Below are positions 33,401-54,400 of a stretch of 64,000 bases of DNA, piece by piece. Location: the NCBI GenBank assembly GCA_963748815.1, contig CAVVKJ010000010.1, positions 960,001 through 1,024,000 of the forward strand, given 5' to 3'. Made by a program: the position numbers. Numbering within the stretch: the first letter of the stretch is position 1; each line of letters starts with the position of its first letter. Origin of the DNA: an uncultured Gemmatimonadales bacterium (GTDB taxonomy: Bacteria; Gemmatimonadota; Gemmatimonadetes; Gemmatimonadales; GWC2-71-9).

Positions 33401-36400
33401 GGTGAAGGCGATGAACATCAGCAGGATGCCGACGTGCACGATGTAGCCGCCGTACCGGCGCCGGTTGCGGGCGATCAGGTTGAAGAAGGCGGTCGGGATC
33501 GACTCGCCGTGCATCCGGCGGCGGGCCCGGATGCCGCGGTAGAACTCCTGCACCACCGTCCCCATGACGAACGCGCCCAGGGCGACGGTCATGATCGGAT
33601 AGACGTCCCGCATGCCGTCGACGACCAGCGCGAGCGCCGTCACCAGCCCCACCGACACCGGGAAGATGAATTGCCGCTGCAGGTTCCGGGCGGACGCCTT
33701 GCGCCACGCGATCAACGGGCCGATGCCGGTGAGCGCCAGCAGGAAGAGCCCCAGCGGAATATTGACCCGGTTGAAGAAGGGGGGACCCACCGTGATCTTG
33801 GTGCCCCGCACCGCTTCCGAGAGGATCGGGAAGAGCGTGCCCCAGAGCACCGAGAAGGCGATGCCGACCAGCGCCAGGTTGTTGAAGAGGAACGCCGCCT
33901 CGCGGCTCAGCATCGACTCCAGCTTGGCGTCGGGCTCGAGCTCGTCCCACCGGGTGTAGAGCATCGTGAAGCTGAGGACGCCGGCCACCAGCAGGAACGC
34001 GAGGAAGAAGTAGCCGACGTTGGATTGCGTGAAGCTGTGCACGCTGGCAATGACGCCGGACCGGGTGATGAAGGTGCCGAAAATGCTGAGGAGGAAGGTC
34101 GCCACGATGAGCGAAAGGTTCCACCGCTTGAGCATGCCCCGCTTTTCCTGGATCATCACGGAATGCAGGAACGCCGTCATCGTCAGCCACGGCAAGAAGC
34201 TGGCGTTTTCGACCGGGTCCCACGCCCAGTAGCCGCCCCAGCCGAGCTCGACGTACGCCCACCACATGCCGAGGACGATGCCGATCGACAGGAAGACCCA
34301 CGAGACGAGGGTCCACTTCCGGATGGCGACGATCCACCCGCTGTCCAGCCGGCGCCGCAGGAGCGCGGCGATGGCGAACGCGAACGGAATGGTGACGCTG
34401 ATGTACCCGAGATAGAGCATCGGCGGGTGCATGACCATGCCGATGTTCTGGAGCTGCGGGTTGAGCCCGCGGCCGTCCTCGGGAATGAACGCCAGCCGCT
34501 CGAACGGGTTGGCGGCAAAGAGCATCACGATGACGAAGAACACCACCACGATGTTGGTGACGCCCGCCACGTAGGGGAGCAGGTCGGCGTAGCGACGCGA
34601 GGTGATCCACTGGGCCACGGCGGAGAACGACGCCAGCACGACCGCCCAGAAGAGGAGCGACCCCTTCTGCCCGGCCCAGAAGGCCGACACGATGTAATAG
34701 GTGGGCAGGTTCCGGGAAGTGTAGGCCGCCACGTACTCGATGTTGAAGTCGTGGGCGAAGAGTCCCTTCCACAGCGACAGCGCCGCCACCAGGAGCGCGG
34801 CCGCGAGCGCGTAGGACGACCGGATGACGGTCCGTTCAAGGTCGGGGCGGTCCTGCCACTTGCCCGAAAAGGAGAGGACCGCGCCGAAGGTACCGATCAG
34901 GAATGCGACCCACAGCGAGAATTGCCCGAGGAGTGTCATCGGGCGTCAGGCTGCGGGTGCTTCAGGCGTGGCCTCATAGCGCGAACCGCACTTGGCCAGC
35001 ACGTCGGTGGCGTGGAACACGCCATCGGCGCCGAGACGTCCCTCGACCACCACTTCGATGTCACTGGCGTCGGTGAAGGTGTCCGGCACGAGGCCCCGGT
35101 AGGTCACCGGGTAGACCTGCGTGCCGTCGGTCACCTGGAAGTCCACCGTCTGGGTGGCGGCGTCGCGCACGACCGACCCCGGCACCACGCGGGCGCCCAT
35201 CTTTACGCCGACGTTGTGGAAGGTGGGATCCGCGGAGGCCTTGGAGGCCAGCTCCGTCGGGGTGAGGAAGTAGACGCCCGTCTCCTTGACCCCCTGGAAC
35301 ATCAGGAGCCCGACGCTGCCGACGATCAGCACGGCGCCGAAGAGGAACTTGTGGCCAGGCTTCATGGTCCCGCTCCCTGCGAATAGTTGGATTCCGACTG
35401 GACTCCTCAACAATCGGCGGGCGGCCCCGCGGGAGCAAGCCCCGAACGGCCGCCTAAGGACTTCTTCACGCCGGCTTTACCCTCACTGCCCCGAGGTGGC
35501 CGCCTGCTGGAAATCGGTCATCATGCGCTCGTGGTCGCCGTACTCGGACCGCCCCTTCTTCATCTCTGCATCGTAATGTGACAGGAACGCCTTGTAGGCC
35601 TTCTGCAAGGCAGCATCGTCCTTGTTCCAGCGCGCCACCGTGCCCTGGATCACATACCCGAAGAGGTGCCCCGGATCCTTGGCCAGGAGGGTGTCGGCGA
35701 TGGCGCTCGCCCCGGCCACGTCGCCGCCGTGGAGCTTCAGGGTCGCGAGGTGAAACCGGGCGTCGGCATCGACCGCATCGAGCTGCTCGTAGGCCATCAG
35801 CGCCATCGGCGTGAAGGTCGTCACCGTCTGCTGGTCACCCGACTCCGAGGCCCGCATGATCCGGTTGTAGAGGGCGTCGAATCGTTGCCGCGGGGTCATG
35901 TTGCTGATGTCAGGCGGCGTGCCGCCGCCTGCCCCGCCCGCGAAGGGAGCCGCCGACCCACTCGCGCCGACCGCGCCGGCCGCCTCGGCGGGACCCTGAT
36001 TTCCCTTGACCACCAGCGCGAGGACCGCGACCAGGAGGACGGCCGAGATGGCAGCGGCCATCGCCCAGGCCTTCCGCTCCCCCTGAGGGCTCCCGGCGCC
36101 CCCGGCGCCCGCGCCGGCTCCCGGCACGCTCGGTGTCCCGCACTGGGTGCAGAACTTGGCGCCGGCGGCCAGCGGGGCCTGACAGGAGCTGCAGTTCCGC
36201 GGGCCGAGGCTGGCACCACAGTGACGACAGAACTTCCCTTCGGCATCGGCACCGCATGAGGGACAACGGGTGGTCTTGGAGGCCATCGGGCAGAATCCAT
36301 GGTATGAGGGTGGAAGGCGGTCGGCACCAATCTAGCCAGACCGCCGCAATTGCGGGACCGGAATACTACTGATGGGTCAGCAGATGCGGGGGAGCTGGTC

Positions 36401-51400: not shown

Positions 51401-54400
51401 TGGTGTACGGGAATTCGCTGTCACGACCGCTGGAATACCGCTGGGACCAGTCGGTGGTCCTCGTGTACGGGATGCAGGCCTCCGTGGTGGCGCGGGACAA
51501 CGTGAGCGTCGCCTTCACGATGGCCCGGTACGATGAAAACCGGGAACGTCCCGACGCCGCATCGTTCGAGTGGGACCAGATCCGCTTCGGGGCCAAGGTC
51601 GTCATGACCTTCAGCTCGGCCGACCGGCTGCCCCTCCCCAAGGCCATCACCAACCGACCGGCGGGGTACTGAAATGCGTCGCGTACTCCTGCCCCTGATA
51701 CTGGCGCTCGCCGCGCTCTCGGCCCCCGCGGCCGCGCAGCAGGGTGACCATTTCGACCACCCGCAGCACGCCAAGGTCTTCCCGACCTGCACCGCCTGTC
51801 ATGCCGGCGCTCTCAATCCCTCCCGGCCGCTCCTCCCCTCCGGGCAATCGTGCGCCAGCTGCCACGACGGCACCATCGAGCGCCGGGTGGACTGGAAGGC
51901 GCCCGCGCCGACGGGAACCAACCTTCGATTCACGCACGCCGAGCACAGGCAGGAGGTGCTCGCCAAGGCAGGAGGCGACTCCACGCTCACCTGCCAGGCC
52001 TGCCACATTCCCGAGGGCAGCGCCTGGATGACGGTGGAGCCGGCGGTCATGCCGCAGTGCCTGGCCTGTCACGGCGTCAAGGCGGCGCACCTCGCCGCCC
52101 CCGACACCGCGTGCGCCACCTGCCACCTCACGCTGGCGCAGGCGACCACGCTGACCTCGGCGCAGGTGAAGGAGTTCCCGGCACCGCCGTCGCATGAGGC
52201 GGCCGGGTTCATGGGCGCCGACGGGCACGGCGCGCAGGCGCAGGCCGGCACCGGGCCGACGACCTACCTCGTGGCACCAAGCTGCGCCACCTGCCACGCG
52301 CAGGAGTTCTGCATTACCTGTCACGTGAACGCCCCGGAAACACCGACCATCCAGGCGCTGGCCCAGGACCCCCGATCGCTCGCCATTCCGGCGCGTCTCG
52401 AGGAACCCGCCACGCACGAGCAGCCCAATTTCGTGACGACCCACGGCAAGTCGGCGCGCAAGAGTGCCGCCGCCTGCCAGACCTGTCACACCCAGGAGAG
52501 CTGCCTCTCCTGTCACATCACGCCGCCGCGGTCGGTCGCCACGCTCTACGCGAGCGGTCCCGGTCGGGGGGCGGGCGCCCAGGTGGAGCGGAGCCGTCCG
52601 GCCAGCCACATGGCCGACTTCAGCACCATCCACTCGCCAGTGGCCAACAGCAACCCGCAGTCGTGCGAGGGGTGCCACGCGCGCCCGCAGTGCCTCGATT
52701 GCCATCGCGGGACGCCCGACCGCACGCCGCAGTACCACCCGCAGACCTTCCTCGAGCGGCATCCGGCGGCGGCGTACGCGCGCGAGACCAACTGCAGCGA
52801 CTGCCACAACCCCGGCGCCTTCTGCCAGACCTGTCACGTACAGTCGGGCCTCGGCAGCCCCAAGGGAGCGCTCCAGGCGGGCTACCATGACGCCTACCCG
52901 GCCTTCCTGCTCAACCACGGCCAGGCGGCCCGCCAGAGCCTCGAAAGCTGCACCTCGTGTCACGTCGAGAAGGACTGCCTGAGCTGCCACTCGGCGCTCT
53001 ACGGCCGCGGCTTCAACCCGCACGGCCCCGGGTTCGACCCCGAGCAGCTCCGCTCCAAGAACCCGCAGATGTGCACTGTATGTCACGGACAGCGGGTGCC
53101 GAGTTCGAAGTGAGGGAAGCGGGGAAGCGGGGAAGCGGGGAAGCGGGGAAGCGGGGAAGGAAGATGCGAATGGAAGGCGAGCGCGCAAGGTCCAGCCAGC
53201 AGAATGGCCCCGGGTAGAATCACCCGGGGCCGTTTGTCCGTCAGGACATGCTACTTGATCAGAATCTTGCTGGTGACCGCCGACGGCACCTTCGGCAGAT
53301 GCACGAGCAGCACTCCATCCTGATAGGTTGCCGTGACGTTCTCCGCCATTGCGGGCGCGGGAAGCCGGATCATGCGGTGGAACTCGCCCCACTCCCGCTC
53401 GGCGTGCAGGTAGCGCTCGGTCGGTTCCGCCCCCGGGAATTCACGGCGACCGCTCAGCGTCAGCAGGGTCCCGACCAGCGTGATGTCGAGATTTTCCCGG
53501 TGGGCGCCGGGCACGTCGAGGCGGACGAGGTACTCCGCGTCGGTCTCGAGCAGATCGAAGGGAGGGAGCCACGCCGCAGGCTCCGCCTCACGGGTCCGCA
53601 GCAGGGCCTCGGGGGCGAAGGTGTTGTGGAAAAGCCGGTCGAACACCTGGTCGATGTCGTTGCGCACCTTGGCCATGACGGGTGCGGCCTTCACGATTCT
53701 CATGATTCCTCCTGATAGAGACCGTGCCACCACGATAGCATCCCGGCGCTGAAGCCGGTGTGAAGCGGGGTTGAAACCATGGCCACGAAGTTCGCGCAGG
53801 GGTTCTGGCGGCTCGCCGATCCGAAGATTTCGCTCGCCTCCGCCGCCGGCATGCTGCTGGGAGCCTCCTCCGCGGCCGCTGCCGGACCGATCGCGATCGG
53901 CTGGCTCCTGCTCACGGTGCTGGGGATCTTCGCGGTGGAGGTGGCAAAGAACGCCTCTGGAGAAGTGTACGACTGGGACTCCGGCACCGACCTCAAGGTG
54001 CGGGACGAGGACCGCAGCCCATTCTCAGGGGGCAAGCGCGTGCTCGTGGACGAATTGCTCACGCGAGGCCAGACCTGGGGAATCGCCCTCGGCGGCTACC
54101 TGATCGGCGCGGCGGCGGGGCTGGTGATCGTGGGATGGAGGGAGCCCACGGTGCTCTGGTTCGGGATGGCGGGAATGGCCATCGCCTTCTGCTATCACGC
54201 CCCGCCCTTCCGATTCAGCTATCGCGGCCTCGGGGAACTCGCGGTGGCCATCAGCTACGGACCGCTGGTCTGCGTCGGTACCTACCTGGTGCAGCGCGGG
54301 GCAATGCCGATAGAAATCATCCTGCTTTCGCTCCCGCTCGGCATCCTGATCGCCGCTTTCCTCTGGATCAACGAGTTTCCTGACTACTCCGCCGATGCCC

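What a model noticed while it worked through the whole genome (the two positions that open the first line are those of the whole stretch)
36366..53113. Two porin-multihaem cytochrome gene clusters, one back to back with the uptake [NiFe]-hydrogenase
g02284-g02288 encode, in one direction, an 8-haem lipoprotein, a small protein, an 18-20-haem protein, a 24-strand outer-membrane beta-barrel and a 16-haem protein; the module lies back to back with the uptake [NiFe]-hydrogenase operon (g02283-g02274) and near ccmEFH, and a second set (23-haem g00338, 30-haem g00339, 742-aa secreted g00340) lies at C5:267184-273892. I propose that the five genes form a new porin-cytochrome conduit for extracellular electron transfer, which in this strain can be fed by H2 oxidation. 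New would be a conserved, sequence-novel outer-membrane electron conduit in Gemmatimonadota, known so far as aerobic heterotrophs or phototrophs, and a candidate route from H2 to [...]
Evidence so far: CXXCH counts call 73 (8; 18 plus 2 CX3-4CH; 16; 23; 30); g02286, g02287, g00339, g00340 have no Pfam/NCBIfam row. g02287: signal peptide, AF2 model with 28-sequence alignment mean pLDDT 79, 24 beta-strands; Foldseek finds outer-membrane barrels only, MtrB of the Mtr complex 6r2q_B at rank 4, E 4.8e-9. 471 homologues of g02287 at E<=1e-40, none with a functional name. Gene order call 13. Conservation: the barrel gene is in 11 of 16 genomes of the family, 1 of 17 and 0 of 12 of the sister families (E<=1e-60, call 173); in 12 loci fetched the order g02284-85-86-87-88 is kept wherever the contig allows (all five in 8 of 12, the rest cut by contig ends or lacking the small gene); hydrogenase gene [...]
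(Added by a program. Inside this text positions count along the whole contig: contig position 960,001 is position 1 of the stretch shown here. "Call 12" and the like, gene names such as g00115 and contig names such as C1 are that model's own, and its searches are not shown. The text may have been shortened before it was handed on; [...] marks where a part breaks off. The agent that wrote the report below was given it as the finding of a first reader that could run no searches.)

Follow-up and report, generated by a model that had tools for sequence, protein, structure and literature searches.

The report
Gemmatimonadota hydrogenase-linked porin-cytochrome electron conduit
Beside its hydrogen-oxidising enzyme, this bacterium carries four genes for a haem-packed protein wire threaded through an unnamed outer-membrane barrel; the set is widespread in Gemmatimonadota and probably lets them pass respiratory electrons to acceptors outside the cell, which is still untested.

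Summary
The cluster is real but has four genes, not five. g02284 and g02285 are one nine-haem lipoprotein (OcwA/OmhA-like), split here by one extra base that 12 of 12 aligned relatives lack. It is followed by a membrane-anchored 20-haem protein with a degenerate NrfH/NapC domain, a plugless barrel of 22 (not 24) strands, and a 16-haem protein. A complex model puts the 16-haem protein's C-terminal seven haems inside the barrel (score 0.81, best control 0.00). The barrel occurs in 132 of 300 Gemmatimonadota genomes, with the 16-haem gene next to it in 82 of 82 loci. The hydrogenase link is stronger than reported: 75 of 78 genomes with this hydrogenase have the barrel (nosZ control 86 of 115), and 33 of 39 same-contig pairs lie within 30 kb. 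But 57 of 132 barrel genomes lack the hydrogenase. The C5 cluster is a different system that fits the published PCC3 type. Best reading: an outward quinol-to-surface electron conduit, with H2 as one optional input; direction and acceptor are inferred. It is a new variant of a known kind, not found in my eight literature searches. This scan has reported it before on other DNA.

The parts
46497..48180 (+). Gene A (g02284 + g02285): nine-haem lipoprotein (8 CXXCH + 1 CX4CH, lipobox LAG-C) of the OcwA/OmhA branch; split in this assembly by one extra base near 47621
   Evidence: profile hits OmhA 6QVM E 1e-17 and OcwA 6I5B E 9e-17; nine conserved non-motif His for nine haems
48185..50185 (+). Gene B (g02286): two transmembrane helices, degenerate NrfH/NapC-type tetrahaem domain, then a haem chain; 18 CXXCH + 2 CX3-4CH
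   Evidence: TIGR03153 E 0.0024, below cut-off; only PDB profile hit NrfH 2J7A E 2.5e-4; motif tally
50182..51672 (+). Gene C (g02287): 496-aa signal-peptide protein, 22-stranded plugless outer-membrane barrel; start overlaps the stop of B; invariant Cys pair in extracellular loop 1
   Evidence: no family above cut-off; no PDB sequence hit
51674..53113 (+). Gene D (g02288): 16-haem secreted cytochrome, 28.6 aa per haem; residues about 289-449 of the mature chain (seven haems) modelled inside the barrel
46112..46496 (.). Divergent intergenic region with two conserved blocks, one a CTGAAG-N4-CTTCAG palindrome
   Evidence: alignment of 12 near-clade sequences
44975..46111 (-). Group 1 [NiFe]-hydrogenase small subunit (twin-arginine signal, C-terminal helix)
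   Evidence: TIGR00391 above cut-off
43273..44991 (-). [NiFe]-hydrogenase large subunit
   Evidence: PF00374; L1/L2 motifs
42509..43276 (-). Hydrogenase cytochrome b subunit (quinone-reducing by family knowledge)
   Evidence: TIGR02125 above cut-off
42013..42552 (-). Hydrogenase maturation protease
   Evidence: PF01750
36366..42020 (-). Maturation genes hypA-like, hypB, hypF, hypC, hypD, hypE; hypE has a frame change between 36517 and 36576 here and is intact in 4 of 4 relatives
   Evidence: hypA and hypC read by eye from recalled N-terminal motifs
32290..36286 (-). Zinc-ribbon membrane protein, ccmE, ccmF, ccmH (haem attachment)
   Evidence: ccmF lies in 18 of 82 barrel loci
53779..54690 (+). 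MenA-like prenyltransferase; neighbour kept in the near clade only
   Evidence: UbiA family, TIGR00751 below cut-off

Best explanation
The four genes build one 45-haem electron path across the whole envelope. B sits in the inner membrane and takes electrons from the (mena)quinol pool through its NrfH-like domain, then carries them along its remaining 16 haems through the periplasm. D receives them at its N-terminal half and threads its C-terminal seven haems through the 22-stranded barrel C. Lipoprotein A, at the outer membrane, hands them to acceptors outside the cell (Fe/Mn oxides, humic quinones or other cells). The divergent hydrogenase reduces the same quinone pool through its cytochrome b, so H2 is one fuel among others. 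Shown from sequence: genes, haem counts, conservation, linkage. Modelled: barrel fold and C-D insertion. Inferred: quinol oxidation by B, B-D and D-A contacts, surface exposure of A, outward direction, the acceptor.
For: D homologue directly after the barrel in 82 of 82 loci, A upstream in 75 of 82. Barrel aligns end to end with the barrel part of TonB-dependent receptors but has no plug (Z 18-19, rmsd 4-6 A, about 360 residues). Complex model C+D: score 0.81, best of 3 controls 0.00, a mark reached by 116 of 157 solved complexes and 2 of 215 mismatches; runs agree in at least 85% of contacts, partner pLDDT at least 76; contacts are alternating strand residues round the barrel and D residues 289-449. 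That is the half of D kept in the shortened variants. A's closest solved relatives are the cell-surface Fe(III)-reduction cytochromes OmhA and OcwA (PMC9250108), with an OmcB-family cluster among its language-model neighbours (0.93). The B slot is filled by B in 57 of 82 loci, and cytochrome b-type genes (petB-like or FdnI-like, often with a NapC 21-haem protein) lie in 24 of 82, so a membrane link recurs in different forms. Hydrogenase: 75 of 78 carriers have the barrel, in two different gene arrangements and on both sides of the barrel tree. No RuBisCO and no NrfA found in G000, 86% complete.
Against: No experiment and no expression data. B lacks the helix carrying the NrfH quinol-site lysine (role recalled), and the haem-1 Met of CXXCHXM is Phe in G000's clade (Met 25, Phe 19, Arg 1 of 45), so quinol oxidation by B is not secure; its AlphaFold model was poor (pLDDT 64). 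Some loci have only a short B, or none. 57 of 132 barrel genomes lack this hydrogenase, and 6 of 39 same-contig pairs are 80 kb to 2.4 Mb apart. nosZ is also enriched in barrel genomes (60 of 67 in f1, 5 of 6 in f6, 4 of 4 in f7), so part of the co-occurrence reflects lifestyle. The complex model may echo the solved MtrAB architecture. Porin-cytochrome conduits work in both directions (PMC6295460).
Confidence: 0.62

Rival explanations
1. Same conduit, run inward: electrons from Fe(II), reduced humics or other cells enter through A-D-B and feed quinones or oxidases; hydrogenase and conduit are parallel inorganic electron inputs of a lithoheterotroph, which is why they are linked.
For: G000 has haem-copper oxidases, an ACIII-like cluster on C9 (read by eye) and a PCC3-type cluster, a kind first described in Fe(II) oxidisers (PMC5566968). 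B's quinol site is non-canonical. Two electron inputs would explain shared regulation.
Against: A resembles terminal reductases of Fe(III) reducers. Described uptake systems such as MtoAB and PioAB lack an extracellular cytochrome (PMC5566968). No RuBisCO found.
Confidence: 0.18
2. The chain never delivers electrons outside: A faces the periplasm and the haems act as a capacitor or reduce a soluble substrate (N or S oxides), with the barrel as an anchor for D.
For: A belongs to the NrfA/HAO superfamily, whose members all reduce nitrite or NO in vitro (PMC9250108). Lipoprotein orientation cannot be read from sequence.
Against: Nine conserved His for nine haems leaves no obvious open catalytic haem. 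The model has D reaching the barrel's long extracellular loops. NrfA not found in G000.
Confidence: 0.12
3. The conduit is real, but the hydrogenase is only a fellow traveller in a redox gene island (with ccm, menA, PCC3) of facultative anaerobes; H2 does not specifically fuel it. Not exclusive of the best explanation.
For: ccmF sits in 18 of 82 loci; the PCC3-type barrel lies within 35 kb in 12 of 14 same-contig pairs picked by eye; nosZ is also enriched; 57 of 132 barrel genomes lack the hydrogenase.
Against: In family f2, 13 of 15 hydrogenase carriers have the barrel against 12 of 32 nosZ carriers and a background of 19 of 70. Adjacency survives rearrangement: divergent upstream in some genomes, co-directional downstream in others.
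Confidence: 0.25
4. In this strain the locus is decaying: the frameshifts in A and hypE are real and the system is inactive here.
For: Both frameshifts are in the assembly; no read-level check is available.
Against: B, C, D and the hydrogenase subunits are intact and 92-98% identical to the closest relative. Five relatives have A broken at other, different places, and nosZ and a COX1 gene are also in pieces in G000, the pattern of scattered assembly indels.
Confidence: 0.1

Closest known systems
Geobacter Pcc (OmbB-OmaB-OmcB and related clusters; PMC4245776, passages read)
   Same: Clustered porin of 18-22 strands, periplasmic multihaem partner and outer-membrane lipoprotein cytochrome; A has an OmcB-family language-model neighbour.
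   Different: Partner has 16 haems (Pcc 5-14); a membrane-anchored 20-haem protein is encoded inside the operon; order is lipoprotein-B-porin-partner; homology of the barrel to OmbB could not be tested.
Shewanella MtrCAB with CymA (PDB 6R2Q); MtoAB, PioAB
   Same: Cytochrome threaded through a barrel, lipoprotein cytochrome, NapC-family membrane entry point.
   Different: Barrel has 22 strands against 28 predicted for MtrB (PMC4245776) and is no MtrB/PioB member; D is not a DmsE/MtrA decahaem; A is OcwA/OmhA-like; the NapC-like domain is fused to a long haem chain.
OcwA (6I5B) and OmhA (6QVM) cell-surface cytochromes
   Same: Best solved relatives of A (E 9e-17, 1e-17), nine haems like OcwA, shared C-terminal GxHN segment.
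   Different: Those are from Gram-positive bacteria without a porin and have two penta-coordinate haems (PMC9250108); A appears to have a His for every haem.
NrfH / CymA / ImcH quinol dehydrogenases
   Same: Membrane helix followed by a tetrahaem domain; only PDB profile hit is NrfH; CXXCHXM in 25 of 45.
   Different: Second membrane helix, 16 further haems, lysine helix deleted, Met replaced by Phe in this clade; no PF03264 row.
PCC3 (He et al. 2017, PMC5566968)
   Same: The C5 cluster fits it: inner-membrane protein with two WX3HX13H and SGXXG, 23- and 30-haem cytochromes, barrel.
   Different: The window's cluster has no such membrane protein; its barrel is at most remotely related to the C5 barrel (probability 38%, 17% identity).

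Membership tests
Porin-cytochrome conduit (functional kind) | Outer-membrane barrel gene next to a periplasmic multihaem gene | tested here: met
   82 of 82 loci; barrel model pLDDT 84
Porin-cytochrome conduit (functional kind) | Cytochrome inserted in the barrel lumen | tested here: inconclusive
   Model supports it, score 0.81 vs control 0.00, but a model is not a measurement and may echo MtrAB
Porin-cytochrome conduit (functional kind) | Transmembrane electron transfer | not testable with these tools
   needs proteoliposomes or mutants
MtrCAB / MtoAB / PioAB | MtrB/PioB-family porin (PF11854, TIGR03509), 28 predicted strands | tested here: not met
   No PF11854 match in G000; TIGR03509 in 1 of 44 orthologues at E 0.041; 22 strands
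MtrCAB / MtoAB / PioAB | Decahaem MtrA/DmsE partner | tested here: not met
   TIGR03508 scores 32-34 for A and B against cut-off 192, no row for D; D has 16 haems
Geobacter Pcc (OmbB-OmaB-OmcB) | Porin of 18-22 strands | tested here: met
   22 strands; range from PMC4245776
Geobacter Pcc (OmbB-OmaB-OmcB) | Periplasmic partner with 5-14 haems | tested here: not met
   D has 16 here; shortened variants with 9-12 exist in relatives
Geobacter Pcc (OmbB-OmaB-OmcB) | Sequence homology to OmbB and OmaB | not testable with these tools
   No OmbB/OmaB sequence or model came from any call; GSU2204-family model weakly in 3 of 44 (best E 7e-5)
Geobacter Pcc (OmbB-OmaB-OmcB) | OmcB-like outer-membrane lipoprotein cytochrome | tested here: inconclusive
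   Lipobox in orthologues; OmcB-family cluster at rank 11, score 0.93, a lead only
PCC3 (window cluster) | Inner-membrane protein with two WX3HX13H motifs and SGXXG in the cluster | tested here: not met
   The four genes run without room for it
PCC3 (window cluster) | Porin related to PCC3 porins | tested here: inconclusive
   Against the C5-type barrel profile: probability 38%, E 3.4e-4, 287 columns; reversed controls 0.6% and 0.2%
PCC3 (C5 cluster) | Inner-membrane protein with two WX3HX13H motifs and SGXXG | tested here: met
   Both motifs and SGXXG found in the 273-aa gene before the cytochromes; 4 hydrophobic helices by my scan, 5 in the paper
PCC3 (C5 cluster) | Two very large low-complexity multihaem proteins plus a porin | tested here: met
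   23 and 30 haems (paper medians 21 and 34), 38-41% T/S/A/G, barrel-like gene ending in Phe
PCC3 (C5 cluster) | Sequence homology to the published PCC3 proteins | not testable with these tools
   Supplements held as text gave table captions only
NapC/NirT/NrfH quinol dehydrogenases (gene B) | Membrane anchor plus tetrahaem domain homologous to NrfH | tested here: met
NapC/NirT/NrfH quinol dehydrogenases (gene B) | CXXCHXM at haem 1 and the Lys/Asp quinol-site pair (roles recalled) | tested here: not met
   Phe in G000; Met in 25 of 45; lysine segment falls in a deletion, acidic position is E, Q or K
NrfA/HAO superfamily, OcwA/OmhA branch (gene A) | Sequence homology over the haem core and C-terminal helices | tested here: met
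NrfA/HAO superfamily, OcwA/OmhA branch (gene A) | Penta-coordinate haems | tested here: inconclusive
   Nine conserved spare His for nine haems suggests none, but no structure of A was predicted
Group 1 membrane-bound uptake [NiFe]-hydrogenase | Small, large and cytochrome b subunits with protease and hyp genes | tested here: met
Group 1 membrane-bound uptake [NiFe]-hydrogenase | Subgroup assignment (1c, 1d, 1f) | tested here: inconclusive
   No classifier on hand; the extra cysteines of O2-tolerant 1d enzymes (positions recalled) are absent

The most novel reading that the evidence does not exclude
A third major, phylum-wide family of porin-cytochrome conduits in which one operon encodes the entire quinol-to-surface wire, and whose near-obligate partner relationship with a group 1 hydrogenase means that this hydrogenase exists mainly to drive extracellular respiration. 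Gemmatimonadota, seen as aerobic heterotrophs, would then be widespread H2-fuelled reducers of minerals, humics or partner cells at oxic-anoxic interfaces.
Probability: 0.35. Interest if true: 0.82.

Novelty: new variant of a known kind. Interest (0 to 1): 0.64.

Why it matters
Gemmatimonadota are among the commonest soil and sediment phyla and have no established role in extracellular electron transfer. An unnamed conduit in 44% of sampled genomes, missed by MtrB-type models, would add a large hidden group of candidate iron, manganese or humic respirers and give marker genes to test it in existing metatranscriptomes. It also offers a function for their uptake hydrogenase, 96% of whose carriers have the barrel. 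Structurally it proposes a 22-stranded barrel holding a seven-haem segment, smaller than MtrAB, and a membrane-to-periplasm fusion cytochrome.

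Tried and rejected
Five-gene model with a small protein: rejected. Programmed frameshift in A: rejected, the extra base is private to G000. 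C5 cluster as a paralogue: rejected; the barrel query finds one match in G000 and the C5 genes fit PCC3. B as partner of a nitrite reductase: NrfA not found in G000, 86% complete. AlphaFold model of B's N-terminal domain was weak (pLDDT 64); Foldseek ranked NrfH first at a non-significant E 2.1 and VIA-align gave only helix matches, Z at most 4.5. No solved barrel stood out for C; no Geobacter porin appeared in the listed rows. Pfam scan of 33 distant barrel representatives gave nothing above cut-off. Cluster look-up of 10 distant barrels gave no organism names; a second homologue search reached Ca. Eisenbacteria and one Tepidiformaceae-labelled record; the 544 weakest of 694 profile hits were not shown, so the range outside the phylum is open. 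FNR and CRP boxes were not found in the intergenic region of the near clade. The tree is the quick version; the careful search did not finish. Figure 6 of PMC13264449 and figures of other papers could not be seen and may show this cluster; bioRxiv supplements are closed.

Full report
What is there. The window is G000:C10:960001-1024000 of a 3.16-Mb, 19-contig genome, 86% complete; its closest named relatives are Gemmatimonadales MAGs. On the minus strand, 36366-46111 holds a group 1 [NiFe]-hydrogenase operon (small, large and cytochrome b subunits, protease, hyp genes), followed by a zinc-ribbon protein and ccmEFH. On the plus strand, after 385 bp, come the multihaem genes, closely packed or overlapping. 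GC content is like the rest of the window.

Four genes, not five. The 8-haem ORF ends in Arg-rich junk, and the 'small protein' continues it in another frame. Of 14 loci given to blastn, 12 aligned over the site, and all 12 lack one base that G000 has near 47621. In relatives the two parts form one frame of about 500-560 aa, and 35 of 35 intact orthologues have nine haem motifs. hypE is likewise shifted here and intact in 4 of 4 relatives; nosZ and a COX1 gene are also in pieces; five relatives have gene A broken at other places. Scattered assembly indels are the likely cause, but reads were not checked. The unit is A (9 haems), B (20), barrel C, D (16): 45 haems.

Gene A has a lipobox. A single orthologue found nothing in the PDB, but a 35-row profile hits OmhA (E 1e-17) and OcwA (E 9e-17) first, then MtrA (8e-10) and other NrfA/HAO-superfamily proteins. 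OcwA and OmhA are cell-surface cytochromes, OcwA tied to iron reduction (PMC9250108, passages). Nine conserved spare histidines match nine haems, which fits electron transfer better than catalysis (inference).

Gene B begins with two hydrophobic helices. Its N-terminal profile has one PDB hit, NrfH (E 2.5e-4). Against a simple reading: the segment with NrfH's quinol-site lysine (role recalled) is deleted, the haem-1 motif is CXXCHXM in 25 of 45 orthologues but CXXCHXF in 19, as in G000 (47 rows listed, two frameshifted fragments dropped), and structure searches with a weak model were uninformative. B is a membrane-anchored haem chain; quinol oxidation is inferred. In other loci the slot holds a Rieske-like gene, petB-like cytochrome b, a 21-haem protein with a clear PF03264 domain and an FdnI-like cytochrome b (L034); B's N-domain lies just upstream of the barrel in 57 of 82 loci and cytochrome b-type genes lie in 24 of 82. 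A few loci have only a short B or none.

Gene C starts at 50182. AlphaFold with 44 rows gives pLDDT 84. Counting membrane strands gives 22 with alternating long and short loops; the other strands form an extracellular loop-1 domain with an invariant Cys pair. VIA-align lays it end to end on the barrel part of TonB-dependent receptors, without their plug (best Z 19.2, rmsd 5.8, 383 residues), with MtrB at rank 20; Foldseek puts MtrB at rank 18. So the fold says 'large empty barrel', not 'MtrB'. No family reaches cut-off, there is no PDB sequence hit, and the 30 Atlas neighbours have no common Pfam family.

Gene D follows the barrel in 82 of 82 loci (79 within 400 bp, three shortened forms at 434-455 bp; the 82 include 11 loci chosen for hydrogenase adjacency and two likely duplicates). 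Shortened forms keep the C-terminal half. The complex model of C and D scored 0.81 against a best control of 0.00; the mark was reached by 116 of 157 solved complexes and 2 of 215 mismatches, counts that hold only roughly with my alignments; runs agreed in at least 85% of contacts and partner pLDDT was at least 76. Contacts are alternating strand residues round the barrel and its long loops, against D residues 289-449, seven haems. This matches the half kept by evolution. It supports binding without showing it, and likeness to MtrAB may contribute.

Distribution. The barrel is in 81 of 120 genomes of the family and, by profile, in 132 of 300 of the phylum, in 8 of 12 families; 694 clusters at 50% identity match, and homologues reach Ca. 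Eisenbacteria. These are samples of incomplete genomes.

The hydrogenase link. In the same 300 genomes the large subunit is found in 78: 75 with the barrel, 3 without; 57 have the barrel alone, 165 neither. Of 39 genomes with both on one contig, 19 are within 10 kb, 33 within 30 kb and 6 far apart; 36 are on different contigs. As control, nosZ carriers have the barrel in 86 of 115. In family f2 the figures are 13 of 15 for hydrogenase, 12 of 32 for nosZ, background 19 of 70; in f1 54 of 54, 60 of 67 and 88 of 125; in f6 and f7 nosZ is about as enriched as the hydrogenase. The hydrogenase is divergent upstream in some genomes and co-directional downstream in others. On a quick tree of 77 barrels (L106 and L108 dropped as likely duplicates; short or broken barrels left out) the adjacency label needs 15 changes and occurs on both sides of the midpoint root; contig ends and my choice of loci inflate this. 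Kin are not independent, so I give no P value. The link is real and tighter than for nosZ, but the conduit does not need the hydrogenase.

The C5 cluster is another thing. Before the 23- and 30-haem genes lies a 273-aa membrane protein with two WX3HX13H motifs and SGXXG, the signature of PCC3 (PMC5566968, passages). Its barrel type is in 55 of 300 genomes and resembles barrel C only faintly (probability 38%, reversed controls under 1%).

Mechanism. Most likely quinol passes electrons to B, B to D, D through C to A, and A to an outside acceptor, with H2 feeding the quinone pool through the hydrogenase's cytochrome b (family knowledge). I put about 0.85 on a trans-outer-membrane conduit and about 0.62 on the whole outward scheme. 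Inward flow remains possible: G000 has oxidases, an ACIII-like cluster and PCC3, though no RuBisCO was found.

Literature. Eight full-text searches found no description of this operon; the library lacks most subscription papers. Seen as passages: PMC5566968 (also supplement search), PMC13264449 (also section 18 and supplement search; its figure of clusters by phylum not visible), PMC11316326 (also section 9; Hya hydrogenase widespread, three MtrABC operons and DFE_461-465 homologues in marine Gemmatimonadota), PMC6137239 (one Gemmatimonas MAG with an 'mto-like' system), PMC4245776, PMC6295460 (one CbcL and two ImcH homologues in the phylum), PMC9250108, PMC13055281, PMC9769843, PMC11495043, PMC9671151 and bioRxiv 10.1101/2020.11.15.383943. 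The FeGenie hits in those papers may include these cytochromes. Earlier notes of this scan describe the same four-gene system on other genomes; I had stated my reading before seeing them and do not count them as support.

Verdict. A real, phylum-wide, unnamed porin-cytochrome system: it works like Pcc or MtrCAB with CymA, fails the Mtr membership tests and cannot be tested against OmbB here. New variant of a known kind; interest 0.64.

Noticed in passing
L082:6380-15893 (G000:C5, about 264400-273900): PCC3-type cluster (membrane protein, 23- and 30-haem cytochromes, barrel), preceded by a 455-aa protein with ferredoxin-like Cys motifs and FAD/NAD-binding-like motifs (read by eye; no Pfam row). 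Its barrel type is in 55 of 300 genomes; PCC3 was described mostly from Proteobacteria.
   Followed up: partly
window 46230-46246 and 46381-46430: Two conserved intergenic blocks in 12 near-clade sequences, one a CTGAAG-N4-CTTCAG palindrome upstream of the hydrogenase; candidate regulator site, no FNR or CRP match.
   Followed up: partly
L034:4830-12019 and similar loci (L041, L044, L048, L059-L061, L063, L064, L066, L068, L098, L099): Larger variant in which gene B is replaced by a Rieske-like protein, petB-like cytochrome b, 9-, 21- and 11-haem cytochromes and an FdnI-like cytochrome b; some add a 19-haem fusion.
   Followed up: partly
G306:C312, G183:C40, G234:C11, G205:C5, G202:C3, G236:C1 and others: The two unrelated barrel systems often lie 9-35 kb apart (12 of 14 same-contig pairs picked by eye), suggesting electron-transfer islands.
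   Followed up: partly
window 2106-3319: Haem-copper oxidase subunit I matched in five pieces; possibly further assembly indels.
   Followed up: no
window 53779-54690: MenA-like prenyltransferase downstream of gene D, kept in the near clade only.
   Followed up: partly
L086, L090, L095: Loci with two tandem copies of gene A directly before the barrel and no gene B; in L086 and L090 the hydrogenase follows gene D on the same strand.
   Followed up: no
L094 (G161) and other family f3 genomes: Barrels lacking the extracellular loop-1 domain (profile match starts near position 57).
   Followed up: no
L083:7517-9832; L084:3930-8898: An 8-haem TPR protein on C5 and an alternative-complex-III-like cluster on C9.
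   Followed up: no
window 41760-42020: HypA-like ORF of only 86 aa without the usual paired CXXC zinc site (recalled).
   Followed up: no
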